Virus record (IMG/VR): IMGVR_UViG_3300044557_000292
Coordinates: 259,388 to 323,387 of that record
From: a virus
Lineage: Duplodnaviria > Heunggongvirae > Uroviricota > Caudoviricetes
Reading direction: 5' to 3' (one strand)
DNA length: 64,000 nucleotides
The notes under the pieces are model-generated. The model searched no databases. It had not been told where the DNA came from and saw only the letters and a program-made list of their open reading frames with translations. The position numbers were made by a program, and so were the translations under genes. This document shows positions 46,977-60,250 of this stretch, in pieces (position 1 is the first letter of the stretch; each line of letters begins with the position of its first letter).

Positions 46977-47097
46977 CGGCCTGCAGGATACTTCTCATGC
47001 AGCATGTCTAGAATGATCCATCAGATTGATGGCTGCTAACCTTCAGCATACTTCTCTATGTTCCCTATTCATCCAATATACGATTACAAGTTTACGG

Positions 47098-47169
47098 TTG
47101 CCTGAGAAGGACTCGAACCTCCAGTATCCCCGTCCAGGGCGGGGCGCGTTGCCATTGCGCTATCAGGCA
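47098..47169 (-). tRNA. tRNA-Gln(CTG), C33
   Basis: Cloverleaf; CCCCG-CCCTGGA-CGGGG. Confidence 0.8.
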
Positions 47170-47347
47170 ATAAAATGGGCGGCTGGTTCCATGCAGCCGG
47201 CCTTACGCCGGCCCATGGGGGTACTCAATGGATATGATCCATTCGTTGACCACCAGCACCCCACGATCATGGTTATCTTCAATCGCCATGATCGTGTTTC
47301 GCAGAATCCTGCATCATGTTGAAGACCACGATGCTATCAACTGTTAG

Positions 47348-47431
47348 CGGATGATGCGGGAGTCGAACCCGCCACGGTGTTACCCGAACCTCATTAGCAG
47401 TGAGGCGCTTTAACCGCTCAGCCTACCATCC
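47348..47431 (-). tRNA. tRNA-Ser(GCT)
   Basis: Long V-arm, G73, loop CTGCTAA. Confidence 0.92.
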
Positions 47432-47684
47432 ATACGCACTTCATATCAATTGCCGGAGTAAACCAGCAGTATCATTATAACTCTTGCAGCCCGATCGTGT
47501 CAACCCCATCAGAATCATGCGAGAAACCTGCCATGACCTCAGCCTCATGAGCATCGGTCTTACCGGCAGACCCTCCCCTGCTGATGGTGAAGCAGATGGA
47601 ATCATGGCGGTCGGAATTTCCTCACCAATTCCTCCTGAGTTTTATGATTACCCAACCCAGTGATGTGGACTCATCGTTACTCTC

Positions 47685-47855
47685 CTACTTCCTGCCGGGA
47701 TGAATAGGATGATCAGTGCTCCCAATAATCGCCGTGAGACGTGGAGCAGGTGTGAAGCCATCCATGAACGCATTCAGGCGCACCCTGGAGTCCTCAAGCT
47801 CTTTCCTCGTGAGGGGACCACGGTCAATCACGTAACTCTTGTCTATGCTACTCAT
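47685..47855 (-). CDS. small hypothetical protein (56 aa)
   Basis: RBS GGAGG, MSSIDKSYVIDRGP. Confidence 0.5.
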   Translation of the reverse strand: MSSIDKSYVIDRGPLTRKELEDSRVRLNAFMDGFTPAPRLTAIIGSTDHPIHPGRK

Positions 47856-47895
47856 TTTCCCGTCCTCCATCGTTTCAATGAATAATTGCATGGAG

Positions 47896-47968
47896 TGGAA
47901 GCGACGGGGATCGAACCCGCTTCCTCCTGCGTGCAAGGCAGGTGTCCTACCATTAGGACCTCGCCCCC
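47896..47968 (-). tRNA. tRNA-Ala(TGC)
   Basis: G3-U70, loop CTTGCAC. Confidence 0.92.
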
Positions 47969-48011
47969 ATTTGTGGAATACATGGACACAGTGCTATATC
48001 CATGCATCTAG

Positions 48012-48096
48012 CGGATGATGGGGGATTCGAACCCCCGGTGGTGTTACCCACTCCTGTTTTCTAGACAGGTGCACTAAACCGCTATGCGAATCATCC
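48012..48096 (-). tRNA. tRNA-Ser(AGA)
   Basis: Long V-arm, G73, loop CTAGAAA. Confidence 0.9.
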
Positions 48097-48097
48097 G

Positions 48098-48170
48098 AGC
48101 CAGCAATCGGTTTCGAACCGATGACCTTCTCATTACAAGTGAGATGCTCTACCATCTGAGCTATGCTGGC
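48098..48170 (-). tRNA. tRNA-Thr(TGT)
   Basis: Loop CTTGTAA. Confidence 0.93.
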
Positions 48171-48190
48171 AATTTTATGAAGTGATCCTT

Positions 48191-48548
48191 GAAGGCGGCC
48201 TGTAGCCACGGTTCTGTCCACATGATGACGAATAGGATCATCATGTTGTACCATCATCCATCTACTCCCGCTACCTGTCCTTATAACGATCGAATAAATC
48301 TAGACGTTCTGCGGTTTCACCGGGACTGGCTTGCCAAGGTTCCCCTCACGAGGATTAACCCACGATTTCTTACATCGTGCTTTTCACCCTTACCTGTGAT
48401 TCCTTATGGAATCCATCGGCGGTATGGTCTCTGCGGCGCTATCACTACTCTCACGGGCGGTGGGATTACCCCACGTCCCTATTCTATGGTGCCGTGAACT
48501 TCCTCTGAAAGAACGTCGTGTTCTACCAGCGATGATCCAGCTGCCTTC
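48191..48548 (-). ncRNA. rnpB: RNase P RNA (type A-like, P18 apparently absent)
   Basis: P1 GAAGGC/GCCTTC; GAGGAAGTTCACGG pairing with ACAGAACCGTGGCTA (P4); GATAGCGCCGCAGAGA..ACCGCC; GGTAAGGGTGAAA; AGATGGATGAT (P2). Confidence 0.88.
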
Positions 48549-48598
48549 AAAATGTTACGAGCTAACCCAATAAAAATTCGAGCAATCACGTATCATCG

Positions 48599-48668
48599 TG
48601 CTCATAATCGGAATCGAACCGATAACAATATACCCATATGGGAATAAAACCACCAGGTGAGCTAATAT
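48599..48668 (-). pseudogene. tRNA remnant
   Basis: Intact T-arm ATCGG-TTCGATT-CCGAT, partial acceptor, no usable D or anticodon arm. Confidence 0.45.
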
Positions 48669-48670
48669 TT

Positions 48671-49132
48671 TTAGACTAATAATGATGACAATTCCGTTAC
48701 CATTAACTCTAGTGTATGACGCCTTTCATTCATAAGAAACGAATTATTGACCTCATTACCATGATTATCAAATGATACCGATTGGTCCCACATGACCCAA
48801 TCATCCTTGTACTTGTTAATATCATTGATAAGTTCATTAGCAAGATATCTACAAGTTCTTAAACCCTCATAATCCATAAGATCATGGGTCAACAGGCCAT
48901 CATCAATGCTCGTTGATACGGAGTAAAGAATGCCATCAAAATCAAGGAATCCTACCGAATATCCCTCCGCGTCAAGACTTACATTCAAATGAACGTCATC
49001 CTGATTAGCGGTAAGAACATCGATAAAATATTGAAGCAAGATTATAGGTACGTCATCAGTATAACTCACACTGCCTACACGCTTGTTATTAATAACAAGA
49101 TCAGCGTACCCAGAACTTGGCTTTGATAACAA
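48671..49132 (-). CDS. hypothetical protein (AT-rich insert)
   Basis: 153 aa, RBS AAGGAG, TTG start. Confidence 0.75.
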   Translation of the reverse strand: MLSKPSSGYADLVINNKRVGSVSYTDDVPIILLQYFIDVLTANQDDVHLNVSLDAEGYSVGFLDFDGILYSVSTSIDDGLLTHDLMDYEGLRTCRYLANELINDINKYKDDWVMWDQSVSFDNHGNEVNNSFLMNERRHTLELMVTELSSLLV

Positions 49133-49169
49133 AACGTTCTCCTTAACTATATCTCCCTATATCGTGAGG

Positions 49170-49240
49170 AGCGGTCGACGGGAATCGAACCCGCATCATC
49201 TCACAGGCAATGAGACGCCTTACCATTGGGCTACGACCGC
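49170..49240 (-). tRNA. tRNA-Gly(GCC)
   Basis: U73, loop TTGCCTG. Confidence 0.9.
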
Positions 49241-49496
49241 GTGAAAACCTAGCCAGTCCCCGGAGTGATCATGCATAATCAGACCAGGGGGACGGCTAGG
49301 AACTAAAATGTCGGCCATCATGGATGGGAAGATCCTCGCCTAATTGGAAATACCATAGCGATTGATGTCTTCATGACTGCTAACCGGGCGATCCCCATGA
49401 CGCAACAGAATCCTCAGGGCTAGGCGCATCCACGCCTAGTCCTACTCCCCCATTCGGGAACTGCACGAGCATCACGCCTGCAAGAAGTGACCGACG

Positions 49497-49571
49497 TGCT
49501 TCCAACAGGATTCGAACCTGTGATCTCCTCCGTGTAAAGGAGGCGCCTTAGGCCAACTAGGCTACAGAAGC
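49497..49571 (-). tRNA. tRNA-Val(TAC)
   Basis: Loop TTTACAC. Confidence 0.92.
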
Positions 49572-49576
49572 AAGAT

Positions 49577-49620
49577 GTGTACAAGCGTGTACAAATAAGA
49601 TCGTGTACAAGCGTGCATAA
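49577..49620. repeat. GTGTACAA direct repeats (3 exact + 1 variant)
   Basis: At 49577, 49587, 49603, 49613. Confidence 0.7.
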
Positions 49621-49645
49621 TCCTATCCGCGTACTGGACGCGTGA

Positions 49646-49810
49646 TCAATCAACCCTAGAATCTTTATCAGGGTCTTTATCCTTCAGGGTCTTCATGAAG
49701 GCGATAGAGGAGTCAACCAGTGAGTTCATCTTACGCTCAGTAGAATTCCTAGGGTGAGCGACCCTGGTATAACCGGGAATAAGCTTCCTATCCGTTGGGT
49801 TCTTACCCAT
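49646..49810 (-). CDS. small hypothetical protein (54 aa)
   Basis: RBS GGAGG, MGKNPTDRKLIPG. Confidence 0.55.
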   Translation of the reverse strand: MGKNPTDRKLIPGYTRVAHPRNSTERKMNSLVDSSIAFMKTLKDKDPDKDSRVD

Positions 49811-49857
49811 ATCAGCCTCCAAATCCTGTGATTGTGATCCTATGTATGCTTGTTGCG

Positions 49858-49933
49858 TAGCGGGGGCGCGATTCGAACGCGCGATCTCTTGATTATGGGT
49901 CAAGCGAGGACAGCCGAGCTCCTCTACCCCGCA
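49858..49933 (-). tRNA. tRNA-Met(CAT), initiator-like acceptor, C33
   Basis: U1:U72 mismatch, CTTGA-CCCATAA-TCAAG. Confidence 0.85.
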
Positions 49934-49935
49934 AG

Positions 49936-50008
49936 TGCTTTCAACAGGACTCGAACCTGTGACCTATTCCGTGTGATGGAAGCGCGCTGCCATCTGCGCC
50001 ATGAAAGC
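49936..50008 (-). tRNA. tRNA-Val(CAC)
   Basis: Loop ATCACAC. Confidence 0.88.
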
Positions 50009-50220
50009 ATAAGTGGACGAGACTGCCTCTCCTTATGTCTTATCCATAATGCACCGTGCGTGATCATAAAACCCCCACGGGAGAGACGTGCTGACTGCTG
50101 TGGAGCATCAATGATCACAGCCTGTTATCACTGATCATCACCCCAATGGAGAACAACTCCCGTTATCTCAGGGACTGTTGCCCTCCACCAGTTACGACAA
50201 TGATCAATGGATGCTCTGCG

Positions 50221-50291
50221 AGCGGATGACGGGAATCGAACCCGCGTATCTTCCATGGGAGGGAAGCGCCTTACCATTGGGCTACATCCGC
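50221..50291 (-). tRNA. tRNA-Gly(CCC)
   Basis: U73, loop CTCCCAT. Confidence 0.92.
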
Positions 50292-50484
50292 AGCGCCAGG
50301 ATCTTACGTGTCCTGGCAGGAACACTCCAGACTCCATACTCCACCTCGAGGTCAGTATTTCCACCAGCCCCTACAGGAGTGCTGTCACGACTGCCCTCAC
50401 CGTCAACCACGTATCGGTTACAGGCTGGGGGGGGGAGTGCAGCTGCCCTAAACGTCTAGCTATAATAGAACAAACCAGACATCG

Positions 50485-50555
50485 AGGGGATGACGGGAGC
50501 CGAACCCGCGTAACCTGCTTGGAGGGCAGGCGCACTACCGTTATGCTACATCCCC
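50485..50555 (-). tRNA. tRNA-Gly(TCC), C33
   Basis: U73, loop CCTCCAA. Confidence 0.88.
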
Positions 50556-50683
50556 ATGTATCCTGAAACCATCACCGTGGCATGCTCAAGATGGACGAAG
50601 GGTGTTCAGGACTGCACACCCTCTGTTTCCTTATCCCCCTATTGCGAGGTGAAATCACGATGATGACAAAAGATTTATGTCAA

Positions 50684-51261
50684 TTATCTGTGAGGGTTAG
50701 ATCTTTCAGATTGTAATTTACGAAGGCATTCTTTGCTACAAGATTTTCTAACCTTCCTTGATGTATAAGAAAACTCACGCCCACACGCTTCACAAACGCT
50801 AACTCTACTACGTTTTTTGAGCGTATTCAATCTTCTGCATTCAAAGTAATTAACAGAAGTACGACTCACAAAACCAGTACCGTTCAATGGAACATTGCTG
50901 GATGAAGTTTACGCATCGATTCTGAAGTTTTCTGTCTAGTTTTACTACTTTGAGACCAAGTTCTCGTAAGACTATTAGGAATTTGCCCGTAGAATAATGG
51001 CTTAAGAGTTACAAACCATTTCATCTCTAGAAAATCCTTAATCCTATTGGAATTCTCGCATTGTTCAAGAATTTGAAATCTAAGAGCGTGAGGATCTCCA
51101 CCGTGTCTATTAAACCACTTTATAAATTCCTTACGATTATGATTACCAGACTTCAAACCCTTTAAGTGAGCTTTCCATCGTTCTTGAATATCCTTAGATT
51201 GACCAACGTAAAGACACGCTCCGTTGTAAGAATCAAAAATTGCGTAAATCCCACAAGCCAT
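50684..51261 (-). CDS. GIY-YIG homing endonuclease split in two frames (51261..50884 and 50887..50684)
   Basis: CGIYAI..LYVGQS..R, NUMOD3-like SSKTRQKTSES; CxxC..CS..C Zn finger in -1 frame. Confidence 0.75.
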
Positions 51262-51344
51262 TGCTTATTACCACCTTAATGTTTTAAGAAACAAACGTTA
51301 AGATATCATTAGTAATGAAAATCAATCCTCTCAAGAGGATATCG

Positions 51345-51415
51345 TACCCCATGATTGAGTTGAACAATCTTAAGATGTTTATAAGACATCCTTGCGCTAC
51401 CGGCGACAATGGGGT
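51345..51415 (-). tRNA. tRNA-Ile(TAT), weak D-arm
   Basis: ACCCCAT/ATGGGGT, GATGT-CTTATAA-ACATC, GATTG-TTCAACT-CAATC. Confidence 0.7.
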
Positions 51416-51427
51416 GAATGTCCACAA

Positions 51428-51527
51428 TATGGGTTCACCGTGATTAATCACGCCGTGAGCATGAGGACTAGGGTAAGGATAACCTAACCCTCACCTTGAC
51501 GGCAATTGGAATCACGGTGAACCCATA
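51428..51527 (-). ncRNA. candidate 100-nt rod-like RNA
   Basis: Perfect 18-bp terminal stem plus nested GCCGT/ACGGC, GTGAGG/CCTCAT, TAGG/CCTA. Confidence 0.45.
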
Positions 51528-51656
51528 ATTAATAGATATAGGAGGTTTCTCATGACTGATCAGATTCAATGCTGCCACAATGATTCCCATGCAATGGAAT
51601 CATTCCACTGATCCATCATGACCGATCCGGGGAAATGATCAAAACCCGGATCAGCG

Positions 51657-51731
51657 TAGCCATATCGGGGCTCGAACCCGAATTCTCTTCATTGAAGGTG
51701 AAGTGAGATAAACCAGTTACTCTATATGGCC
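51657..51731 (-). tRNA. tRNA-Glu(TTC), C33
   Basis: Loop CCTTCAA; 5' end overlaps stop of upstream endonuclease. Confidence 0.9.
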
Positions 51732-52861
51732 CTTCTAGTTCTCCCTAGCTTCCTAATAGGAACACCAAGAAAATTTAATCTATTCTCTACAGTAGTATGA
51801 GAAATTCCTAATTGTTCAGCAATTGCGTCCATACTCATTTCCTTTATAGAATAACATTTCTGAATTTCATCATCTAGGTTATTTGCTATTCCATATCTAC
51901 CAAGTTGAGCACAAATTCGTGAACAATATGTTTTATCTTTAACTTTTCTTCTAAAGATTGTAAAATGTTTTCCGCAATAATCACAAACATAATGGTATCC
52001 ATCTTTAGGCGTTTTGTGTATTTCTTGAAGAAGCAATCCGTGTTCTTTTAAACATCTTCTCACATGATTCCTACTGATGTGAAGTTTCTTGGCTGTGTCA
52101 TATGTACTGATTCCAGATTTATAGGTATCAATGATAATATCCTCAATACTATCAACTTCTTCATGATAACATTCATCTGCCTTTCTTGTTTTTGGATTTA
52201 TTCTATTGTCGCAAGAAACATTATTGCGTTTCAAGAATTTATCTAAAGATCCTCGACTGATATGAAGTTTTAATGATATATCGCGTATGGCAAAACCAGA
52301 CCGATAAAGTTCGTTAATAGTATTTTCAATACCATCAATTTCGTCATGATAATGCTTTTCAGCTCGTTTCTTAATTTCTTCAGCTCCAAGACTGATTTCG
52401 GGGTCCAATCTATTAGGCCAAGGAGCACAGATAGCATGATTCATAAGACATTCACCAATATTACGGCCATATTTTATCAGTAATGTTTCCATCACGTCAA
52501 GATCTGTTTTAAACCACGCATAAGCAATGAATGTTTTAATAACATCACCCTCACTATTGGAATTAATGTGCTCCTTAACATCCCTACCACTACTCTTATA
52601 ACGACGCCAACCAGGATTGCCGCTATTGTGCTTATCTTTACTATAATAATCACAAGCTAACTTGCGCTGACCTATGTATGTCTTGCCATCAGACTTGGTT
52701 GTTATCAGATAAATATAACCGTATGGAGTATCATGCGGATCATGCTCAGTCTTAATCTCGTCAGACTTCAACCTGAACATGGTTCGTAGTCGCTCTACGC
52801 GTTCATGCAATGGTAATGATTCCATACGATATATGGCACCAATTAGTATCAAGAATCGCAC
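51722..52861 (-). CDS. GIY-YIG (Seg-like) endonuclease with HTH repeats and Zn finger
   Basis: YGYIYLIT..KTYIGQR, three HTH-like repeats, CDYC..CSRIC; start uncertain. Confidence 0.85.
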   Translation of the reverse strand: MRFLILIGAIYRMESLPLHERVERLRTMFRLKSDEIKTEHDPHDTPYGYIYLITTKSDGKTYIGQRKLACDYYSKDKHNSGNPGWRRYKSSGRDVKEHINSNSEGDVIKTFIAYAWFKTDLDVMETLLIKYGRNIGECLMNHAICAPWPNRLDPEISLGAEEIKKRAEKHYHDEIDGIENTINELYRSGFAIRDISLKLHISRGSLDKFLKRNNVSCDNRINPKTRKADECYHEEVDSIEDIIIDTYKSGISTYDTAKKLHISRNHVRRCLKEHGLLLQEIHKTPKDGYHYVCDYCGKHFTIFRRKVKDKTYCSRICAQLGRYGIANNLDDEIQKCYSIKEMSMDAIAEQLGISHTTVENRLNFLGVPIRKLGRTRRAI

Positions 52862-52887
52862 AAATTATGACCCTTTAGGGTCATAAG

Positions 52888-52961
52888 CGCCCCGAACAGG
52901 ATTCGAACCTGCAACCTACTGGGTAGAAACCAGCCGCTCTGATCCATTGGGCTACCGAGGC
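52888..52961 (-). tRNA. tRNA-Arg(TCT), acceptor stem imperfect
   Basis: Loop TTTCTAC; 3' acceptor strand one base short. Confidence 0.8.
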
Positions 52962-53058
52962 ATTAGGATTGGCGTGGTCGCGGATAAGACGATTATTCCA
53001 CATTTTCATTTTTCAGATTCAGCCGATCCTCTATATAATCAACCGGCTACCAATCCAG

Positions 53059-53132
53059 TGCCCGCAGTCGGATTCGAACCGGCAACCTTCTCCTTAGGGG
53101 GGAGACGCTCTATCCAGTTGGGCTATGCGGGC
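53059..53132 (-). tRNA. tRNA-Arg(CCT), C33
   Basis: Loop CCCCTAA. Confidence 0.88.
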
Positions 53133-53309
53133 ATGATGCAGACGTGATGAACGCGATCAGGAAGAATCTTTTCCATCAGACCACCGACATGCATAAGAGT
53201 CGGGCGGGATTCGAACCCGCATCTCTTCCATTACGCGCTCACCGCGTCTGTGCTCGGGGATTCCGGAATCCCCGCTTGAAACCGCACGGTTGCAATCCAT
53301 GCGGCCAAG

Positions 53310-53392
53310 TGCCCCGAGCGGGAGTCGAACCCGCACTTCCGAGGAAAGTTCTTTTTAAGAGAACCGCGTATACCAATTCCAGCCATCGGGGC
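53310..53392 (-). tRNA. tRNA-Leu(TAA)
   Basis: V-arm present, loop CTTAAAA. Confidence 0.92.
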
Positions 53393-53492
53393 GTTGGATG
53401 AGTTTACCGACATCATTAGGTCTAAGTATAAACGCTATTCCATTATCAAGCATTTGTTCACATTCACACGGTCAACGTGGCGAACAGTATTC

Positions 53493-53521
53493 ATTATATC
53501 ACGGTGCTGCGTGCTTGACAA
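53493..53521 (-). promoter_or_regulatory. sigmaA-type promoter inside tRNA array
   Basis: TTGTCA-17 nt-TATAAT with TG extension. Confidence 0.65.
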
Positions 53522-53566
53522 CGGCGTGTCGCAATCCCCCGCTATAAGTTTTGAATAATGGTCAGA

Positions 53567-53637
53567 CGTGGAGACGGGATTCGAACCCGCGTATAATTGA
53601 ATTGCGGTCAATTGCCTAACCATTTGGCTACTCCACG
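53567..53637 (-). tRNA. tRNA-Cys(GCA), C33
   Basis: U73, loop CCGCAAT. Confidence 0.88.
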
Positions 53638-53638
53638 G

Positions 53639-53710
53639 TACGGGCAGATCGAGTTGAACGATCCTTGCTTCTGTATCAGAGAAGTGTACTCACCGATGTA
53701 CGATGCCCGC
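53639..53710 (-). tRNA. tRNA-Ile(GAT)
   Basis: CTTCT-CTGATAC-AGAAG, T-loop TTCAACT. Confidence 0.8.
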
Positions 53711-53762
53711 GTATTCTACTCATTCTGCTGTTCGCGTGTGAGCACGAGGAGCGTGCTCATCG

Positions 53763-53836
53763 TCACAACGGGAGGACTCGAACCTCCGACATCCTGATTA
53801 TGATTCAGGCGCTCTCACCAGCTGAGCTACGTTGCG
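53763..53836 (-). tRNA. tRNA-Met(CAT) elongator (or Ile2)
   Basis: C1-G72 paired, loop ATCATAA. Confidence 0.88.
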
Positions 53837-53947
53837 TTACGAGATATAGACGGTCACGGCTGAGTCTACGATCAGTAAACATCCCCGCGGGCTGTGCGGC
53901 CACATGCCAGCGCTTCCTCCTATTGAAAGTCGCGCAAGCACCCACCG

Positions 53948-54019
53948 TGGATCCAACGAGAGTCGAACTCGCCACATCCTCCGTGCGGGGGAGGATCGCC
54001 ACCATCGGCATTTGGACCC
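53948..54019 (-). tRNA. tRNA-Ala(CGC), C33
   Basis: G3-U70, loop CCCGCAC. Confidence 0.85.
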
Positions 54020-54114
54020 ATAATAATGAATGTTATAATTGTGCTCGATTCGACATGCTGGTACGATGTACTAGAACCTCGATAGGGACCATAATGCTTC
54101 CATCATGATCCTCG

Positions 54115-54188
54115 TGCGAATGGATCGGCTTGAACGATTGACATCATCCTTATCAGGAATGCGCTCTAACCATCTGAGCTACATCCGC
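54115..54188 (-). tRNA. tRNA-Ile(GAT)
   Basis: Loop CTGATAA. Confidence 0.85.
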
Positions 54189-54219
54189 GAGCCTTATAAA
54201 TAGTTGAATAAGGAGTCAA

Positions 54220-54636
54220 TCAATTTGACAAACTTTTAATCGCGTTAATCACTTCTGTGCACTCCTTAACTTGTAATGATTCCACGCCATAACGATCAGC
54301 CACATTTTCAAGACGTGCTTCAAAGCTTACAAGATCCCCGCGTGAATCAACAGACATATCAGCCTTATTAAGGAGTATTCCTAACGTAGTATTCAGACCT
54401 TCCATCGTACCATGCGCTGCTACTTCTTTCCAGTGAACATAACCTTGGGATCTTAGCAAATCACCACCAATCTTAGCGTGAGTACGATTGTCCCCAATCA
54501 TGTACCCAAGATCATGCACCCATCCTAATAATGCTGCTTCTTGAGGATCAAGCCCATATTCTGATGCATGATTAAACATGTATTCTGCTACTCCTCGTGA
54601 GTGTGAAGCCCTAGTAGAATCAATAAAACTAATCAA
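54220..54636 (-). CDS. HD-domain phosphohydrolase (AT-rich insert)
   Basis: SHS, WVHDLG, HAKIG, AAHG, KAD. Confidence 0.85.
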   Translation of the reverse strand: MISFIDSTRASHSRGVAEYMFNHASEYGLDPQEAALLGWVHDLGYMIGDNRTHAKIGGDLLRSQGYVHWKEVAAHGTMEGLNTTLGILLNKADMSVDSRGDLVSFEARLENVADRYGVESLQVKECTEVINAIKSLSN

Positions 54637-54691
54637 TAATTCTCCTTATTAATAAATTGACACTCGAACGTACAAACCCATAACTAGGGTA

Positions 54692-54730
54692 CGTGCGGGG
54701 GAGGATCGCCACCAGCGGCATTTGGACCCA
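54692..54730 (-). pseudogene. 5' half of tRNA-Ala(CGC), duplicate of 53982..54020
   Basis: 38/39 identity, ends at the anticodon loop. Confidence 0.8.
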
Positions 54731-54760
54731 GGTAATGCTAACCGTATGGCTAGCATATCG

Positions 54761-54835
54761 TGCGGATGATGTGACTTGAACACATGACCTCATTCTTATC
54801 AGGAATGCGCTGCTAACCATCTGAGCTACATCCGC
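54761..54835 (-). tRNA. tRNA-Ile(GAT)
   Basis: Loop CTGATAA; paralogue of 54115..54188. Confidence 0.88.
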
Positions 54836-54883
54836 ATGTCTCATATAATGAATGACGGGCAGCAAGCCACGCCGATGATGGTC

Positions 54884-54975
54884 AGGTTCAACCCCTCTAC
54901 GCTGGGAATACCCGCGTTGTCAGACGCTTGCCCACTGAGCGCGGAGAGGTTCAACCCCTCTACGCTGGGAATACC
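54884..54975 (-). CRISPR. repeat-spacer-repeat mini-array, type I-E-like
   Basis: Two identical 29-nt repeats (minus GGTATTCCCAGCGTAGAGGGGTTGAACCT) and a 34-nt spacer. Confidence 0.5.
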
Positions 54976-55017
54976 TCCTAGGTCATCCGGGTACAATCAT
55001 CTACTCCCCTCACCACG

Positions 55018-55090
55018 AGCCAGCACCCGGAATCGGACCGGGGACCTTCTCATTACGAGTGAGACGCTCTACCATCTGAGCTATGCGGGC
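55018..55090 (-). tRNA. tRNA-Thr(CGT)
   Basis: Loop CTCGTAA, T-loop TCCGATT. Confidence 0.85.
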
Positions 55091-55267
55091 ATACACGATT
55101 TTATCCAGATCGTGAACTGGTTGGCGCGCCCTTAGTTAGATGCCGGTCAATCACTTCCACCAATTGTTAGCATCGTTCCCGCGAACAGCACGCGGACGCC
55201 ATCCCGCGTGACACTCACCCGAGTACGGTTCGGAGGTTGGGGCTGTGGACACTCCGATGGAGAGACG

Positions 55268-55341
55268 TGTTCGCAGCTGGATTTGGACCAGCGACCGCCT
55301 CCGTGTCAGGGAGGAACGCTACCGGACTGCGCCATGCGAAC
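55268..55341 (-). tRNA. tRNA-Val(GAC)
   Basis: Loop CTGACAC, T-loop TCCAAAT. Confidence 0.85.
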
Positions 55342-55403
55342 ATATGAGACCAAGACGCCTGATCCACAGGCAATCAACGATTGCCATGGACGTGGACGCG
55401 GAG

Positions 55404-55476
55404 AGCCAACAGATGGAATCGAACCATCGACCTTCTCATTACTGGTGAGACGCTCTACCAACTGAGCTATGCAGGC
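55404..55476 (-). tRNA. tRNA-Thr(AGT), C33
   Basis: Loop CCAGTAA. Confidence 0.85.
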
Positions 55477-55583
55477 AAGATGGACGGCTTGGGTGATCCC
55501 ATTTGCCGTCACGACTCGAAGCATGAACCCGCCAGTTCATGTTTCTCATCGTGACGGCCGCACTACTAGGAATACCGTCAATG

Positions 55584-55657
55584 TGCCTCCAGCCGGGTTC
55601 GAACCGGCGGCATCTTGTTTCGAAGACAAGCGCTCTGATCCGCTGAGCTATGGAGGC
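55584..55657 (-). tRNA. tRNA-Arg(TCG)
   Basis: Loop CTTCGAA. Confidence 0.9.
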
Positions 55658-55789
55658 AAGTAGTGATTGGCGAGGCGTGCAACCATGCTGCATCTGCGGA
55701 ATCGGACCGGTGCAGGAATACGGACTCGAGCCGTTACCCTTCGCCACGGGGCAACCAGCCCCAATCCTACCACACCGGGTAGGACGCAG

Positions 55790-55862
55790 TTCTCCCAATC
55801 GGTCTCGAACCGATGACACCCTGCTTAAGAGGCAGGTGCTCTACCATCTGAGCTATAGGAGC
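55790..55862 (-). tRNA. tRNA-Lys(CTT), G1:A72 mismatch
   Basis: Loop CTCTTAA. Confidence 0.87.
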
Positions 55863-55900
55863 ATTATCTCCCAAATCATCAATCACAATGACTGGAATTG

Positions 55901-55974
55901 GGTGACTGGAGGAACTCGAATCCTCGACCTGCTGAACCACAATCAGCCGCTCTAACCATCTGAGCTACAGCCAC
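55901..55974 (-). tRNA. tRNA-His(GTG)
   Basis: C73, loop TTGTGGT; base -1 is T. Confidence 0.9.
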
Positions 55975-55976
55975 AG

Positions 55977-56049
55977 CTCCCCGTGAAGGATTCGAACCTC
56001 CAACCTCTGCATTCAGAGTGCAGCGCACGGCCAAACATGCTGACGGGGA
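55977..56049 (-). tRNA. tRNA-Gln(CTG)
   Basis: U1-A72, G73, loop CTCTGAA. Confidence 0.9.
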
Positions 56050-56090
56050 ATATTAGGACTCATTGAGATTACTATTCTCAATGCTTCCAG

Positions 56091-56161
56091 CTGCCCACCA
56101 TGGATTCGAACCATGCTTGGAGGTACCAAAAGCCTCAGTCCTGCCAATAGACGAGTGGGCA
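56091..56161 (-). tRNA. tRNA-Gln(TTG)
   Basis: U1-A72, G73, loop TTTTGGT. Confidence 0.88.
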
Positions 56162-56422
56162 ATATGAAAATCCAGCTCTTAACGGAAGCTGGAATGAAGC
56201 TCTTAATATGCGAATCCGCACTAGACTATCGTTCTCAATGATTCCTAGTTTCTAGTATCATTGCGTCCATGAGCTACCGACGTCCAAGTGAATGGCGGTC
56301 AAGCACATGCGAGTACAGTGATCTCTATGATCACAAATGATGCTCACATTGGATTAACGCTTAACCAGATCCGCTGCAGTCCAGTTCGAGAGGCGGGCGT
56401 GGTGCGCACGCAAGCCGCCAAG

Positions 56423-56495
56423 TGCTCTCAGTGGGATTCGAACCCGCAGCCTCCTGTTCCGTAGACAGACGCTCTATCCGTTGAGCTATGAGAGC
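56423..56495 (-). tRNA. tRNA-Arg(ACG)
   Basis: Loop CTACGGA. Confidence 0.92.
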
Positions 56496-56528
56496 AAAAT
56501 AACAAAAACGACTCTAAAAGCCATTTCG

Positions 56529-56600
56529 TGCCCCATGGGAATTCTGCCATCCCGACCCGATGCTTAAAAGGCACCTGTTCTCCTTCTGAACTAATGAGGC
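56529..56600 (-). tRNA. tRNA-Lys(TTT), non-canonical T-arm
   Basis: Loop CTTTTAA; T-arm GGGATGGCAGAATTCCC. Confidence 0.75.
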
Positions 56601-56827
56601 AAATATAAGATTTGATGGAAGCATAGCCTGGTCATGGCTCCAATCCATGTTACCATCCCGTCACCATGATTACGATTGCTAGCATTACCGTCATCATGAT
56701 GGCTGCGAGTCACGTTCTATACGCTCATGGTCCGGAGTCTAACCGGATCCCATTGGAGACCTGCACTCCACTCTCGCACAGCTACGAGCCGCCCATCCTA
56801 TCCTCATAAGAGGTAAGGATCGCATCG

Positions 56828-56899
56828 TACGCCCGCCGGAACTTGAATCCGGTCCAGCGGTTTTGGAGACCATTATGCTTCCAATCACACTACAGACGA
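56828..56899 (-). tRNA. tRNA-Trp(CCA), degenerate stems
   Basis: Loop CTCCAAA. Confidence 0.75.
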
Positions 56900-56901
56900 C
56901 G

Positions 56902-56975
56902 TGCCCTCCACGGGATTCGAACCCGCACTGAACAGCTCCTAAGGCTGTTGCCTCTGCCAGTTGGGCTAAGAGGGC
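56902..56975 (-). tRNA. tRNA-Leu(TAG), short variable loop
   Basis: Loop CTTAGGA, 74 nt. Confidence 0.9.
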
Positions 56976-57174
56976 TTGAATGCGCAATAAATGGTGGGTT
57001 TATTGTCATCACCGGGACATTGACGCCACGCGTTCATCCAGAGCATTCGCTGGGGACAACCGGTCAGGCTTGGTGTTACGATTCTATCGTAACACACAAC
57101 TGCGAATCGTGATGATTGGCGTGTCTTAAGTGTGAGCAGGTGAGCCCCATCTGAGGGGATGATGCTCAAGCGCG

Positions 57175-57247
57175 TGGAACCGGGGGGAGTCGAACCCTCT
57201 ACCTCTTCCGTGCTGGGGAAGCGCTCTACCAGTTGAGCTACGGTCCC
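57175..57247 (-). tRNA. tRNA-Ala(AGC), C33
   Basis: G3-U70, loop CCAGCAC. Confidence 0.88.
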
Positions 57248-57248
57248 G

Positions 57249-57320
57249 CACGTCGGCAAGGAATCGAACCCTGATCGGGAGGTTTGGAAGCTCCTGTCCT
57301 TCCAGTTGGACGACCGACGC
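57249..57320 (-). tRNA. tRNA-Trp(CCA)
   Basis: G73, loop TTCCAAA. Confidence 0.87.
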
Positions 57321-57329
57321 ATGATGCGG

Positions 57330-57400
57330 ACAATGAGTAGGACTGTCGCGCCCGCCTGGCATGAAGCCAGGCAGCGGGTTAAACCCCGCTGTACTCATTG
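57330..57400 (-). ncRNA. non-canonical cloverleaf RNA with TCA anticodon
   Basis: 9-bp acceptor CAATGAGTA/TACTCATTG, 7-bp D stem, CCTGG-CTTCATG-CCAGG, 4-bp T stem, no V-arm. Confidence 0.55.
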
Positions 57401-57458
57401 CCCTGATATGATGATGTAGACGAGGTCACAGCCACCCTATCATTCGTCTACACCAGCG

Positions 57459-57538
57459 TGGTGCGTGAGGGACTCGAACCCCCGTACCCGAGAGAGCTGA
57501 TTTACAGTCAGCCGCATTTGCCGCTCTGCCAACGCACC
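57459..57538 (-). tRNA. tRNA-Tyr(GTA)
   Basis: V-arm, loop CTGTAAA. Confidence 0.92.
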
Positions 57539-57630
57539 ATGTGATCACCGCTGGGCTGCTGTGCTTCCACCCTGACCCTGTGACGATGACGGCGACCCGT
57601 GAGTACATTATATGCTCACACCGTCGCCAG

Positions 57631-57704
57631 TGCCGACAGTCCGGGTCGAACGGACAACCTCCGAGGCTTCAACTCGGCGCTCTTGCCAATTGAGCTATGA
57701 CGGC
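57631..57704 (-). tRNA. tRNA-Phe(GAA)
   Basis: Loop TTGAAGC. Confidence 0.9.
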
Positions 57705-57705
57705 G

Positions 57706-57788
57706 TGCATCCAGTCTGATTTGAACAGACATGCCTTATCGGCAATGGCTTCTGAAGCCATCGTGTATACCAGTTTCACCATGAATGC
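57706..57788 (-). tRNA. tRNA-Leu(CAG), long V-arm
   Basis: Loop TTCAGAA. Confidence 0.88.
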
Positions 57789-57930
57789 AAATGGCGGCTT
57801 CCCCGCCAGCACTGGTGTTCTCATCGAACGAGCAATGGCGTTGAACGGGCGCATCACAGACTGAACCTCATCCAACCGATGGGATTTTTACCAGACTGAA
57901 CCCTGGAGTGCCTTTGCCGTGGCTCCGCCG

Positions 57931-57995
57931 TAGTCTCAACAGGACTCGAACCTGATTCGTCTGACATGGGAGGCAGACGTACTACCAATGAGACA
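57931..57995 (-). pseudogene. D-armless tRNA-like RNA (CCC loop)
   Basis: GTCTCA/TGAGAC acceptor, 10-nt linker in place of D-arm, GTCTG/CAGAC stem, CAGG-TTCGAGT-CCTG. Confidence 0.55.
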
Positions 57996-58135
57996 TTTCT
58001 AAATTATGTAGACAATAGCATGAATGTGGGCGTTGCACCCACAGGGTCGCTATAGCATTCGGCTCGTTAGTGGTCACGACTAACCATGATAATCTTTACG
58101 ATTATGCTGCTAACTCAAAGCCTACTGATACTGCG

Positions 58136-58224
58136 CGGTTGATGAGGGATTCGAACCCCCGGTGGACGTTAATCCACGCTTGTTTAGTAGACAAGTGCCA
58201 TAAGCCAGACTCGGCCAATCAACC
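58136..58224 (-). tRNA. tRNA-Ser(ACT)
   Basis: Long V-arm, G73, loop CTACTAA. Confidence 0.9.
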
Positions 58225-58422
58225 ATATGATTGCTTGACGGACAATCATGAGGACAAAGCTCCGCGGAGCGCTCCGCCCACCGGCTAGGCCATCAACCCA
58301 GCGTAATGTGCGTCCCTGCTTGCAGATGCTGTCAGGATTCCTCATCTGCATGTCCATCCTCACAATAAGTCCTGTCATTATTGGATGGGCTGGCTAGATA
58401 CGTTGCCATATCCAGGGGCGCG

Positions 58423-58509
58423 CGGATGATGGGGGATTTGAACCCTCGGTGGTGTGACCCACTCCGTCTTTCGAGGACGGTGCACTAAACCAGACTATGC
58501 GAATCATCC
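58423..58509 (-). tRNA. tRNA-Ser(CGA)
   Basis: Long V-arm, loop CTCGAAA. Confidence 0.92.
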
Positions 58510-58545
58510 ATATGCTGATCATGTGGCCATTGGCAGCAAGATCCG

Positions 58546-58619
58546 TCCCTCGTATCGGCGACGATCCGATCACTCCCTGATTAAGAGTCAGGTGCTCTAC
58601 CAACATGAGCTAACGAGGG
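58546..58619 (-). tRNA. tRNA-Lys(CTT), atypical T-loop
   Basis: Loop CTCTTAA, T-loop ATCGTCG. Confidence 0.82.
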
Positions 58620-58620
58620 G

Positions 58621-58694
58621 TTGCGGAGAATGGATTCGAACCATTGACTTCGTGGGTATGAGCCACGCGAGCTACCGAACTGCTCTACTCCGCG
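58621..58694 (-). tRNA. initiator tRNA-fMet(CAT)
   Basis: C1:A72 mismatch, CGTGG-CTCATAC-CCACG. Confidence 0.9.
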
Positions 58695-58768
58695 TGTCCC
58701 CTATGGGATTCGAACCCATACTAGACGGCTCCTTAGGCCGACGCCTCTACCAATTGGGCTAAAGGGAC
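58695..58768 (-). tRNA. tRNA-Leu(AAG), short variable loop
   Basis: Loop CTAAGGA, 74 nt. Confidence 0.87.
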
Positions 58769-58855
58769 ATGATACGTGGATGCGATCATGATCGTCACCA
58801 GTCACGCATCCACGATAGGGCCAACTGGTGACAACCGTCGCTGTCATCGTGTGCC

Positions 58856-58946
58856 CGGTTCTCAGGGGGATTCGAACCCACGCTCGCTGGGAATGACCCC
58901 TCGCACCACTTTATCGGCGGCTGCTACCATTGCATCATTGAGAACC
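58856..58946 (-). ncRNA. class II tRNA-like RNA with 8-bp acceptor, G73, loop CGATAAA
   Basis: GGTTCTCA/TGAGAACC, T-loop TTCGAAT, long V-arm. Confidence 0.55.
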
Positions 58947-58949
58947 ACG

Positions 58950-59035
58950 TGCCCTCACCCGGATTCGAACCGAGAGCCCCATCACGGGAAGACGGGTTTG
59001 AGCCGTCCGCGTCTACCAATTCCAGCCATGAGGGC
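58950..59035 (-). tRNA. tRNA-Leu(CAA)
   Basis: Long V-arm, loop CTCAAAC. Confidence 0.92.
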
Positions 59036-59191
59036 AATTTGCTTAATGCTCTGTAAGGAGAATCACTTATGATCATCAGGACTGCAAGCGCAAGCCGTAT
59101 GCGCTCACCGGGTGACTATCCCCCGCCAAGGGAAGAATTGCCGCCAACAATTCTTGTCATCATCCCCACGGTTGTCCATTCCCGTGGTAAG

Positions 59192-59265
59192 TACTCTCCA
59201 TGGGATTCGAACCCATGCTAGACGGTCCCTGAAACCGCCTCCTCTGCCAATCGGGCTAGGAGAGC
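59192..59265 (-). tRNA. tRNA-Leu(CAG), short variable loop
   Basis: Loop TTCAGGG, 74 nt. Confidence 0.87.
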
Positions 59266-59322
59266 ATAACGTGCCGTCAATCCCACCGTGGTTTGGGGAG
59301 TTGAACCATTGACGGCACATAG

Positions 59323-59396
59323 TAGCCTCATCGGGACTCGAACCCGAAGTCTCATCCTTGAGAGGGATGCGAGGTGACCAGTTACTCTATGAGGCC
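59323..59396 (-). tRNA. tRNA-Glu(CTC)
   Basis: Loop CTCTCAA. Confidence 0.92.
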
Positions 59397-59397
59397 G

Positions 59398-59482
59398 CGG
59401 ATGATGAGGGATTCGAACCCCCGGTGGTGTTACCCACTCTTGTTTTCAAGACAAGTGCACTCGACCGCTATGCGAATCATCC
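59398..59482 (-). tRNA. tRNA-Ser(TGA)
   Basis: Long V-arm, loop CTTGAAA. Confidence 0.92.
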
Positions 59483-59581
59483 AAATATTGTATGCAGTAA
59501 GAGCTAGGAGCCCCCGCCGCGCCGGGCCACAGCCTTACCGGCTTGTCCAGCCCTCGAGTAAGCATCCTTATCGAGCCCGCG

Positions 59582-59653
59582 CGACCACGACGGGAATCGG
59601 ACCCGCTCTAGCTTGCTCGACAGGCAAGTGTCCAACCGGAGGACCTCGTGGCC
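59582..59653 (-). tRNA. tRNA-Asp(GTC)
   Basis: G73, loop CTGTCGA, T-loop TCCGATT. Confidence 0.85.
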
Positions 59654-59728
59654 ATAATGATGCAGACAGCATTACGTGATGAAAACAATGTCAGAACTTT
59701 CATCGGAATCTGTCCACATTCACCTACG

Positions 59729-59803
59729 CTCCCTGTACTAGAGTCGAACTAGTTGCCTCTCGATTAACAGTCGAGCGCAGCCGCCGAAGGCTGCTCACAG
59801 GGA
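59729..59803 (-). tRNA. tRNA-Asn(GTT)
   Basis: U1-A72, G73, loop CTGTTAA. Confidence 0.9.
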
Positions 59804-59809
59804 ATAATA

Positions 59810-60250
59810 GATGGGCGTTTAACGTGCGCCCATCATGCACGGCATGTTTTTCTATCCGACTGCTCGGACTGCTTAGACCAGCTCACCACTTGGACATGAC
59901 TGACAGCATGCGCTGTCAACCGTCACCGCGGATTGCCTATAGGGAACATCTGAAGAAGTATGTTTATTGTCTACCGGCGCTCGACCTTCACAACGAGCTT
60001 GGTACCCGGCTCACGGATTATACGTACTGGGACACAATGTGACCCCGGGTAGCATCTTGAGGACAAGACGCGACCACACCTCGCTTTCTCCGTGCGAGAT
60101 CCAGAATACTGGCGCTCCATCATGCAGACGAGTTGACTAGACCCGTATGGTCTCCTGACCAAGCGCGATAATTCTTTAACATTCCGGTACCGTGGCCGTC
60201 GCATTGCTTCCTCATCTGGAGTTGCACCAGACCTCATTATTAGATTATCA
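59810..60250 (-). ncRNA. candidate large structured ncRNA
   Basis: About 440 nt without tRNA or credible CDS, at least 9 hairpins. Confidence 0.45.

What the first reader, a model, noticed from the sequence alone, without database searches (positions are those of the whole stretch)
48191..48548. Element-encoded RNase P RNA with covaried P4 and no P18
Seen: catalytic-core motifs are present but altered. P4 is GTTCACGG/CCGTGGC instead of the usual GTCCGGG/CCCGGC. GAG is followed directly by TAGATG, leaving no room for P18. No rnpA was recognised in the window. Established: P18-less bacterial RNase P RNAs exist (Chlorobi). Inference: a divergent, still-selected ribozyme that borrows host RnpA and may be tuned to the non-canonical tRNAs nearby.
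Basis: partly seen in the sequence, partly recalled or inferred. Interest (0 to 1): 0.8.

Follow-up and report, generated by a model that had tools for sequence, protein, structure and literature searches.

The report
Huge-phage RNase P ribozyme gene
A complete 420-kb bacteriophage carries, inside its block of 50 tRNA genes, its own divergent copy of the RNA enzyme RNase P that trims new tRNAs. Its catalytic helix is rewritten but still base-paired, and I found no published report of a virus encoding this ribozyme.

Summary
Window 48187-48548 (minus strand) is a full-length bacterial type-A RNase P RNA (Rfam RF00010, 148 bits, E 9e-46).

- **Where it sits:** a complete 419,707-bp phage genome with terminal repeats, inside a same-strand array of 50 tRNA genes and 16 nt upstream of tRNA-Thr.
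- **P18:** this helix is absent (25 model positions replaced by 1 nt). A 9-bp P19 hairpin is present.
- **P4:** the usual geometry is kept (3 pairs, bulged U, 5 pairs), but four of eight pairs are changed on both sides.
- **P4 outer variant (G67-C359, U68·G358):** it is not unique. It marks at least 31 other RNase P-like RNAs on metagenomic or viral contigs; 21 of the 31 fetched stretches also hold tRNA or tmRNA genes. Their inner pairs covary. In about 185,000 species genomes it occurred once, on a 3.6-kb tRNA-array contig.
- **Protein partners:** the phage has no RnpA, HARP or SmpB. It does encode a CCA-adding enzyme, and none of its tRNA genes encodes CCA.

Most likely this is a working ribozyme that uses host RnpA to mature the phage tRNA array. 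Activity, the RnpA partner and any tuning to odd tRNAs are untested.

This scan has noted phage RNase P RNAs many times on other DNA. I found no paper describing one.

The parts
48187..48548 (-). RNase P RNA gene, bacterial type A, 362 nt
   Evidence: RF00010, 148.4 bits, E 9e-46, full model 1-367. Only copy in the genome. Minimum-free-energy z-score -2.91 against shuffles.
48492..48500 (-). P4 5' strand AGUUCACGG, including the bulged U
   Evidence: Coordinates. Pairing table.
48204..48211 (-). P4 3' strand CCGUGGCU, preceded by J2/4 ACAGAA at 48212-48217
48255..48277 (-). L15 3' side with GGU, the P15 3' strand, then directly J18/2 (UAGAUGGAUG). This is where P18 is missing.
   Evidence: cmscan alignment: 25 model positions replaced by 1 nt. 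Coordinates.
48220..48246 (-). P19-like hairpin between P2 and P4: 9-bp perfect stem with a 9-nt loop
   Evidence: Read directly from the sequence. Recovered in the minimum-free-energy fold.
48460..48474 (-). P8 with loop L8 (GUAAU instead of the usual UAACG). L8 is the partner of P4 in the L8-P4 interdomain contact.
   Evidence: The role of the L8-P4 contact is from PMC8457005.
48097..48170 (-). tRNA-Thr(UGU), starting 16 nt after the RNase P RNA 3' end and directly abutting tRNA-Ser(AGA) at 48011-48096
   Evidence: ARAGORN and Rfam. Spacing.
47096..60557 (-). Array of 50 tRNA genes on the same strand as the RNase P RNA gene; the presumed substrates
   Evidence: None encodes CCA, and 11 junctions have spacers of -1 to 2 nt. 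Leaders have U at -1 in 31 of 39 and A at -2 in 28 of 39.
7798..8153 (-). Phage tmRNA gene: a second host-type RNA carried without its protein partner
   Evidence: No SmpB (PF01668) in the genome.

Best explanation
This is a phage-encoded bacterial type-A RNase P RNA that is probably an active ribozyme.

Proposed mechanism (inferred, not shown):
- The gene is transcribed with the surrounding tRNA array of a 420-kb phage.
- The RNA is freed at its 3' side by RNase P cleavage at the 5' end of the tRNA-Thr that starts 16 nt downstream.
- It folds into a P18-less, P19-bearing type-A structure. The L8-P4 contact would then be the only major strut between the two domains.
- It assembles with the host's RnpA protein, because the phage encodes none.
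- It cuts the 5' leaders of about 50 phage pre-tRNAs. At 11 head-to-tail junctions the same cut would also leave the upstream tRNA ending in discriminator plus C, ready for the phage's own CCA-adding enzyme.

Shown here: the identity of the RNA, its structure and its setting, and the fact that its P4 variant is shared by a wider lineage. Inferred: catalysis, the RnpA partner, co-transcription and the end-processing.
For: Identity and structure:
- Full-length RF00010 hit at 148 bits, E 9e-46.
- By my count of the mismatch marks in that alignment, about 84 of 94 aligned model pairs are standard pairs, although the nearest relatives are only 50-55% identical.
- The core motifs are kept: GAGGAA, the bulged U, ACAGAA, AGAUGGAUG, GGUAAGGGUGAAA, GUAAGA and the L15 GGU.
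- P4 pairs fully in the usual 3 pairs, bulge, 5 pairs geometry.

The P4 variant is a lineage trait:
- The same outer P4 variant occurs in 31 other RNAs. Their inner pairs covary (GG/CC, GC/GC, AG/CU; here AC/GU).
- ARAGORN finds tRNA or tmRNA genes on 21 of those 31 fetched stretches.
- Seven are on IMG/VR viral contigs, including a complete 168-kb phage whose copy scores 191 bits.

Setting:
- Complete phage genome with terminal repeats.
- Same strand as 50 tRNA genes, 16 nt upstream of tRNA-Thr.
- Leaders carry U at -1 in 31 of 39 and A at -2 in 28 of 39. From my own knowledge, U at -1 is the bacterial RNase P preference.
- No tRNA gene encodes CCA, and the phage has a CCA-adding enzyme.

Protein partners:
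- No RnpA, HARP or SmpB in this phage.
- No RnpA in 18 other phage records that carry RNase P RNA.

Published context: P18 is dispensable in nature (Aquificales, Chlorobium), and one of the two contacts L8-P4 or L18-P8 can hold the domain orientation (PMC8457005).
Against: - There is no expression or activity data.
- The score is about 100-160 bits below 18 other phage RNase P RNAs, which score 254-307 bits.
- The P16/P17 region fits the model poorly, with 4 non-standard pairs.
- G68, next to the catalytic metal site, is U here (a U.G wobble), and L8 is GUAAU rather than UAACG.
- The only other copies found are 100% identical, so selection on this particular gene cannot be measured.
- No convincing promoter lies directly upstream.
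- The host and its RnpA are unknown.
Confidence: 0.62

Rival explanations
1. It is a captured rnpB copy that no longer works and rides along in the tRNA array as a decaying passenger.
For: - It has the lowest score among the full-size phage copies I scored: 148 bits against 191-307.
- P18 is lost, P16/P17 is degenerate, and conserved P4 and L8 letters are altered.
- It sits on a long branch of 0.64 in the tree.
Against: - Decay should break pairs. Here P4 has four double-sided compensations and no mismatch, and about 89% of all aligned model pairs stay standard, by my count.
- All single-stranded core motifs are intact.
- The P4 variant is shared by a wide lineage with further covariation.
Confidence: 0.12
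2. It folds and binds host RnpA or pre-tRNA but mainly acts as a competitor or regulator. It would draw the limiting host protein away from host M1 RNA as part of host takeover, rather than adding catalytic capacity.
For: - The phage carries the RNA without the protein, as it does for tmRNA without SmpB.
- The letters changed in P4 lie next to the catalytic metal site (the position of that site is from my own knowledge of the Thermotoga maritima holoenzyme structure).
Against: - The bulged U, C70-G357, A66-U360 and the J3/4, J2/4 and J18/2 motifs, which matter for catalysis rather than for protein binding alone, are all kept.
- The strongly conserved U(-1)/A(-2) leaders of the phage tRNAs point to real RNase P cleavage.
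Confidence: 0.1
3. It is an active ribozyme that does not use host RnpA. It works either alone or with an unrecognised phage protein that replaces RnpA.
For: - Many ORFs in the window have no family.
I did not check that note.
Against: - There is no PF00825 hit in this genome or in 18 other phage records.
- The J18/2 and J2/4 regions are conserved as in RnpA-dependent bacterial RNAs.
- From established knowledge, RNA-alone activity needs ionic conditions not found in cells.
Confidence: 0.12
4. It is bacterial DNA: contamination, a chimeric assembly, or a host rnpB next to a prophage.
For: Some IMG/VR hits to RNase P motifs lie at contig ends or on records classed as provirus.
Against: - The record has direct terminal repeats and is rated 100% complete.
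- The gene sits about 48 kb inside the window, amid phage genes and a 50-tRNA array.
- Two further samples gave identical sequence.
- The P4 variant was found in only 1 of about 185,000 species genomes, on a tRNA-array contig.
Confidence: 0.02

Closest known systems
Bacterial type-A RNase P RNA (E. coli M1 RNA / rnpB; Rfam RF00010)
   Same: - Full-length match above the curated threshold.
- It has P1-P5, P7-P17, the P4 pseudoknot with a bulged U, the J3/4, J2/4 and J18/2 motifs, the specificity-domain GGUAAGGGUGAAA module and the L15 GGU.
   Different: - It is encoded by a virus, inside a tRNA array, with no rnpA in the genome.
- P18 is absent and P19 is present.
- Four of eight P4 pairs are changed on both sides, including G68-C358 to U.G.
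- L8 is GUAAU.
Naturally P18-less type-A RNase P RNAs of Chlorobium and Aquificales (Haas et al. 1994 and Marszalkowski et al. 2006, as cited in PMC8457005)
   Same: P18, and so the L18-P8 contact, is missing while the rest of the type-A structure is kept.
   Different: - No specific kinship was shown. Its place in the tree is unresolved.
- The loss looks independent. The other full-size P4-variant RNAs I read through (L156/L162/L171, L160, L172) keep a P18 with a GNRA loop. One unrelated phage RNA (L081) also lost P18.
Other phage-encoded RNase P RNAs in tRNA arrays
   Same: They are type-A RNase P RNAs on phage contigs of 50-480 kb, most of them among tRNA genes, and without RnpA.
   Different: - Those 18 score 254-307 bits and mostly carry the usual AAGUC P4 with UAACG in L8.
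- This one scores 148 bits, belongs to the GUUC P4 variant group and lacks P18.
Translation-related gene sets of huge phages (Al-Shayeb et al. 2020, PMC7162821)
   Same: Many tRNAs, a tmRNA and a CCA-adding enzyme on a phage of more than 200 kb.
   Different: That paper lists tRNAs, tRNA synthetases, CCA-adding enzyme, tmRNA and SmpB. It does not mention RNase P at all (0 occurrences).
Theta (HDV-like) ribozymes next to phage tRNA genes (PMC10879173)
   Same: A ribozyme encoded beside viral tRNA genes and linked to their function (abstracts).
   Different: Theta ribozymes are small self-cleaving RNAs. This is a large, RNase P-type RNA that, if active, cuts other RNAs.

Membership tests
Bacterial RNase P RNA class A (RF00010) | Covariance-model score at or above the curated gathering score, over the full model | tested here: met
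   148.4 bits against 100, E 9e-46, model positions 1-367 of 367.
Bacterial RNase P RNA class A (RF00010) | P4 long-range helix with a bulged U (3 pairs, bulge, 5 pairs), flanked by GAGGAA and ACAGAA | tested here: met
   A-U, G-C, U.G, bulged U, C-G, A-U, C-G, G-C, G-C. Both flanking motifs are present.
Bacterial RNase P RNA class A (RF00010) | Specificity domain with P7-P14 and the conserved GGUAAGGGUGAAA and GUAAGA modules | tested here: met
   Aligned with high posterior probability. Motifs lie at window 48380-48394 and 48366-48373.
Bacterial RNase P RNA class A (RF00010) | P15 internal loop with GGU, which binds the tRNA 3' CCA | tested here: met
   The sequence AGGUAG aligns to the consensus GGGUAG. 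Whether it is used is unknown, because the array tRNA genes encode no CCA.
Bacterial RNase P RNA class A (RF00010) | P18 hairpin with a GNRA loop (L18-P8 contact); typical but not universal | tested here: not met
   25 model positions replaced by 1 nt. Natural P18-less type-A RNAs exist (PMC8457005), so this does not exclude membership.
Bacterial RNase P RNA class A (RF00010) | P6 pseudoknot between the P17 loop and the P5/P7 linker | tested here: inconclusive
   A 4-bp pairing can be drawn (GAAU at RNA 65-68 with AUUC at RNA 254-257). However, P16/P17 fits the model poorly, and there are no close relatives to test covariation.
Bacterial RNase P RNA class A (RF00010) | Catalyses 5' leader removal from pre-tRNA, with RnpA in vivo | not testable with these tools
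No RnpA in the phage.
Phage tRNA-array RNase P RNAs with the GUUC P4 variant (an unpublished lineage seen here) | G67-C359 and U68.G358 in outer P4, with the bulged U and C70-G357 kept | tested here: met
   Shared with L145-L175 and L177-L183.
Phage tRNA-array RNase P RNAs with the GUUC P4 variant (an unpublished lineage seen here) | One common descent with the other GUUC-variant RNAs | tested here: inconclusive
   In a tree built with P4 masked, this RNA sits in an unresolved group with 18 RNAs that carry the usual P4 and 6 variant RNAs. A single origin is neither forced nor excluded.
Phage tRNA-array RNase P RNAs with the GUUC P4 variant (an unpublished lineage seen here) | Lies on a viral genome among tRNA genes on the same strand | tested here: met
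   Complete phage with terminal repeats and 50 tRNA genes on the same strand.

The most novel reading that the evidence does not exclude
The GUUC-variant RNase P RNAs are a virus-specific ribozyme lineage. Their rewritten catalytic helix, and in this phage also the loss of P18, would change metal use, cleavage-site choice or protein dependence. The phage enzyme would then favour CCA-less, head-to-tail phage pre-tRNAs, or would escape host or rival-phage control of RNase P. That would amount to a viral takeover of tRNA 5' maturation.
Probability: 0.15. Interest if true: 0.85.

Novelty: new variant of a known kind. Interest (0 to 1): 0.65.

Why it matters
RNase P RNA is one of the few ribozymes shared by nearly all cellular life, and P4 is its most conserved helix.

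- A complete virus genome carrying its own copy, apparently without the protein subunit, extends the known translation-related gene set of huge phages (tRNAs, tmRNA, CCA-adding enzyme) to the core tRNA-processing ribozyme.
- The variant that changes G67/U68 while keeping the pairing was seen in only one of about 185,000 species genomes searched. It is a natural experiment on which P4 letters the ribozyme can change. It could be tested directly by in vitro cleavage and by rnpB complementation.
- For annotation: most members of this lineage that I scored fall below Rfam's threshold (19-63 bits), so standard pipelines miss them.

Tried and rejected
- The exact 15-mer of the P4 5' strand gave 78 hits in IMG/VR. 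All were chance matches without the 3' partner.
- blastn of the RNA against 50,697 isolated phage records gave no match.
- The GyrA-like protein as bait for sister phages gave one relative at 27% identity. Its 198-kb record has no RF00010 hit.
- The 153-aa ORF upstream of the gene as bait gave only the same phage in two other samples, 100% identical over about 2 kb. There was therefore no variation to analyse.
- A too-strict specificity-domain pattern gave 0 hits. A loosened one gave 64 loci.
- Promoter scan: nothing convincing lies directly upstream of the gene. The nearest candidate (48691 to 48664, 9 of 12 matches) would start transcription inside the tRNA-like element.
- The antisense ORF 48189-48497 (102 aa) has no Pfam family. 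I rejected it as a gene.
- A tree with P4 masked left the position of this RNA unresolved.
- Literature: seven searches plus targeted reads found no report of a phage-encoded RNase P RNA. The library lacks most subscription-journal papers.

Full report
**What is there.** A scan of the whole window against Rfam gives one RNase P hit. It is RF00010 (bacterial class A) at 48187-48548 on the minus strand, 148.4 bits against a gathering score of 100, E 9e-46, aligned over all 367 model positions. The same scan and ARAGORN find 50 tRNA genes on the same strand between 47096 and 60557, and a tmRNA at 7798-8153.

The window is part of a 419,707-bp IMG/VR virus record with direct terminal repeats, rated 100% complete. 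That record holds this one RNase P RNA gene. The neighbouring genes fit a large phage:
- gyrase A and B, NAD-dependent ligase, a PIF1-type helicase and dUTPase;
- GIY-YIG homing endonucleases inside the tRNA array;
- a weak match to a phage tail terminator.

So the 'element' is a huge phage.

**Anatomy.** By my count of the mismatch marks in the cmscan alignment, about 84 of 94 aligned model pairs are standard pairs. P3, P5, P7, P8, P12, P13 and P15 are clean. P1/P2 has two mismatches, P3 one, P9 one and P14 two. P16/P17 is the worst-fitting part, with four.

The single-stranded core motifs are all present:
- GAGGAA before P4;
- ACAGAA after P2;
- UAGAUGGAUG in J18/2;
- GGUAAGGGUGAAA and GUAAGA in the specificity domain;
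- GGU on the 3' side of the P15 loop.

Between P2 and P4 there is a perfect 9-bp hairpin in the P19 position (48220-48246). The minimum-free-energy fold recovers P1, P3, P8, P12-P14 and P19, with a z-score of -2.91 against shuffles.

**P4.** I paired the nine nucleotides after GAGGA with the eight after ACAGAA. This gives A66-U360, G67-C359, U68.G358, bulged U69, C70-G357, A71-U356, C72-G355, G73-C354 and G74-C353 (E. coli numbering).
- The usual geometry of three pairs, a bulged U and five pairs is kept.
- Four pairs differ from the consensus on both sides.
- No pair is broken.

**Is the P4 variant private?** No.
- A pattern that fixes only the outer variant and leaves the two middle pairs free was run on one genome from each of about 185,000 bacterial and archaeal species. 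It hit once. The hit is a 3.6-kb contig in a Pseudomonadota metagenome-assembled genome. On that contig the RNA scores 62.7 bits for RF00010 and abuts a tRNA-Asp within a run of tRNAs.
- The same pattern, with its gap shifted 12 nt shorter, hit 30 metagenome contigs and 7 IMG/VR viral contigs. One of these is a complete 168-kb phage with terminal repeats whose copy scores 191 bits.
- ARAGORN finds tRNA or tmRNA genes on 21 of the 31 fetched stretches. Several of the tmRNAs are of the permuted kind.
- Three of ten large ORFs I scanned on these contigs match phage protein families. The rest match nothing.
- The two free pairs are complementary in 29 of the 31 RNAs and take four forms: GG/CC, GC/GC, AG/CU and, here, AC/GU.

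Across these 32 RNAs and 18 other phage RNase P RNAs there are 15 distinct P4 versions. A66-U360, the bulged U and C70-G357 never change. Pairs 67-359, 68-358, 71-356, 72-355, 73-354 and 74-353 covary.

The altered outer P4 is thus a recurring, selected state of RNase P RNAs on phage or phage-like contigs. It is close to absent from cellular genomes at the usual spacing.

**How this RNA relates to the rest.** A conserved specificity-domain motif retrieved 64 IMG/VR loci. Of the 19 I scanned, 18 hold full-length RF00010 hits of 254-307 bits. Most lie among tRNA genes, on contigs of 52-481 kb. Phage RNase P RNAs are therefore common, and this one is the most divergent full-size copy I scored.
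- It is 45-53% identical to those 18 and 40-55% identical to the P4-variant RNAs.
- Its P8/L8 (GUGGG-GUAAU-CCCAC) most resembles L172 (GUGGG-GAAAU-CCCAC). Nearly all the RNAs with the usual P4 have UAACG in L8.
- In a maximum-likelihood tree with P4 masked, 25 variant RNAs with a reduced specificity domain form one group. This RNA falls in an unresolved group with the 18 usual-P4 RNAs and 6 full-size variant RNAs. A single origin of the variant is neither required nor excluded.
- The other full-size variant RNAs I read through (L156/L162/L171, L160, L172) keep a P18 with a GNRA loop (read from the alignment). The P18 loss is therefore specific to this phage's RNA. One unrelated phage RNA with the usual P4 (L081, on a 77-kb contig) has also lost P18.
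- The only other copies of this exact gene are 100% identical, on contigs from two further samples. That rules out an assembly artefact but gives no variation to analyse.

**Setting and likely mechanism.**
- The gene ends 16 nt before tRNA-Thr(UGU), which directly abuts tRNA-Ser(AGA).
- None of the 50 tRNA genes encodes CCA. Nearly all of them have the discriminator followed by a single C.
- Eleven junctions have spacers of -1 to 2 nt. One RNase P cut there would create both the 5' end of the downstream tRNA and a 3' end on the upstream tRNA that a CCA-adding enzyme could extend.
- The phage encodes such an enzyme (PF01743, 109 bits, 541-aa frame) about 2.6 kb beyond the window.
- The 39 leaders that are not abutted have U at -1 in 31 cases, A at -2 in 28, and a pyrimidine at -3 in 31. 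From my own knowledge, U at -1 is the known preference of bacterial RNase P.
- The phage has no RnpA, no HARP-type protein-only RNase P and no SmpB for its tmRNA.
- None of 18 other phage records that carry RNase P RNA has RnpA. Six of those records are at least 90% complete.

The most economical reading is that the phage supplies the catalytic RNA and relies on the host for the small protein, as it seems to do for tmRNA and SmpB.

Published work shows that P18 has been lost naturally in Aquificales and Chlorobium. It also shows that either the L8-P4 or the L18-P8 contact can hold the two domains in place, while loss of both is severe (PMC8457005). In this RNA the L8-P4 contact would be the only major strut left, and both of its partners (L8 and P4) are changed. 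Whether those two changes are linked is open.

**What is not shown.**
- No convincing promoter lies directly upstream.
- The host is unknown.
- Nothing supports or contradicts the idea that the RNA is tuned to unusual tRNAs.

**Comparison with what is known.** It meets the defining features of bacterial type-A RNase P RNA except P18, which is not universal. What differs is the carrier (a virus), the missing protein gene, the P4 and L8 letters and the absence of P18.

The huge-phage survey by Al-Shayeb et al. lists tRNAs, tRNA synthetases, CCA-adding enzyme, tmRNA and SmpB, and never mentions RNase P. Seven full-text searches found no paper on a phage-encoded RNase P RNA. That library lacks most subscription journals.

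This scan's own earlier notes report phage RNase P RNAs on many other genomes. One describes a peat and soil lineage 'with an unusual catalytic helix', and another a 'fully compensated P4'. My results agree with these notes but do not rest on them.

**Verdict.** It is best read as a functional phage RNase P RNA that depends on host RnpA (confidence about 0.6). It belongs to an apparently unpublished group of phage-encoded RNase P RNAs and to a subgroup with a rewritten P4.

Noticed in passing
window 47096-60557 (minus strand); L176 = G000:C1:324499-327882: None of the 50 tRNA genes encodes CCA, and nearly all have the discriminator followed by a single C. Eleven junctions are head-to-tail with spacers of -1 to 2 nt. 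The phage encodes a CCA-adding enzyme (PF01743, 541-aa frame) about 2.6 kb past the window end.
   Followed up: partly
window, 12 nt upstream of 39 tRNA genes that do not abut another tRNA: The 5' leaders are conserved: U at -1 (31 of 39), A at -2 (28 of 39), a pyrimidine at -3 (31 of 39) and A or U at -4 (32 of 39). The RNase P RNA gene itself is preceded by ACAUUUU.
   Followed up: partly
window 48011-48096, 55403-55476, 57174-57247, 58135-58224, 58694-58768, 56422-56495: Six tRNAs have A at anticodon position 34: Ser-AGA, Thr-AGU, Ala-AGC, Ser-ACU, Leu-AAG and Arg-ACG. From my own knowledge, bacteria normally have this only in Arg-ACG. It hints at broad A-to-I editing or unusual decoding.
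   Followed up: no
window 48598-48662 (minus strand): A tRNA-like remnant lies about 50 nt upstream of the RNase P RNA. It has a 5-bp acceptor-like stem, a good T arm (GGUUCGAUUCC) and an ending of discriminator A plus C, but no D arm. Neither ARAGORN nor the Rfam tRNA model calls it.
   Followed up: partly
window 7798-8153 (minus strand): A standard one-piece tmRNA (tag AAYNTSDFALAA) is present, with no SmpB anywhere in the phage genome.
   Followed up: partly
L147, L148, L149, L153, L154, L159, L161, L167, L174: Metagenome contigs that carry the P4-variant RNase P-like RNA also carry permuted tmRNAs with long, related tags (for example ...VALDLSALADSDMMLLAA), within 1-3 kb of the RNase P-like RNA.
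   Followed up: no
L161 5698-5773; L174 348-422: Suppressor-type tRNAs (anticodon CUA, called tRNA-Pyl, and anticodon UUA, called tRNA-Stop) lie on two of the contigs that carry P4-variant RNase P-like RNAs. This may indicate stop-codon recoding in those phages.
   Followed up: no
L145 (JAYVGZ010000557.1, 3650 bp): This contig is binned in a Pseudomonadota metagenome-assembled genome. It carries a tRNA run plus a 62.7-bit RNase P-like RNA with the phage-type P4, so it is probably phage DNA that was mis-binned.
   Followed up: partly
window 50884-51261 and 51722-52861 (minus strand): Two GIY-YIG homing-endonuclease genes sit inside the tRNA array. One is SegE-like with several helix-turn-helix repeats.
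   Followed up: no
window 39332-42070, 42153-43334, 17996-19186 (minus strand): The phage encodes a TraG/TrwB-type coupling-protein ATPase, a type II/IV secretion ATPase and a full-length TelA.
   Followed up: no
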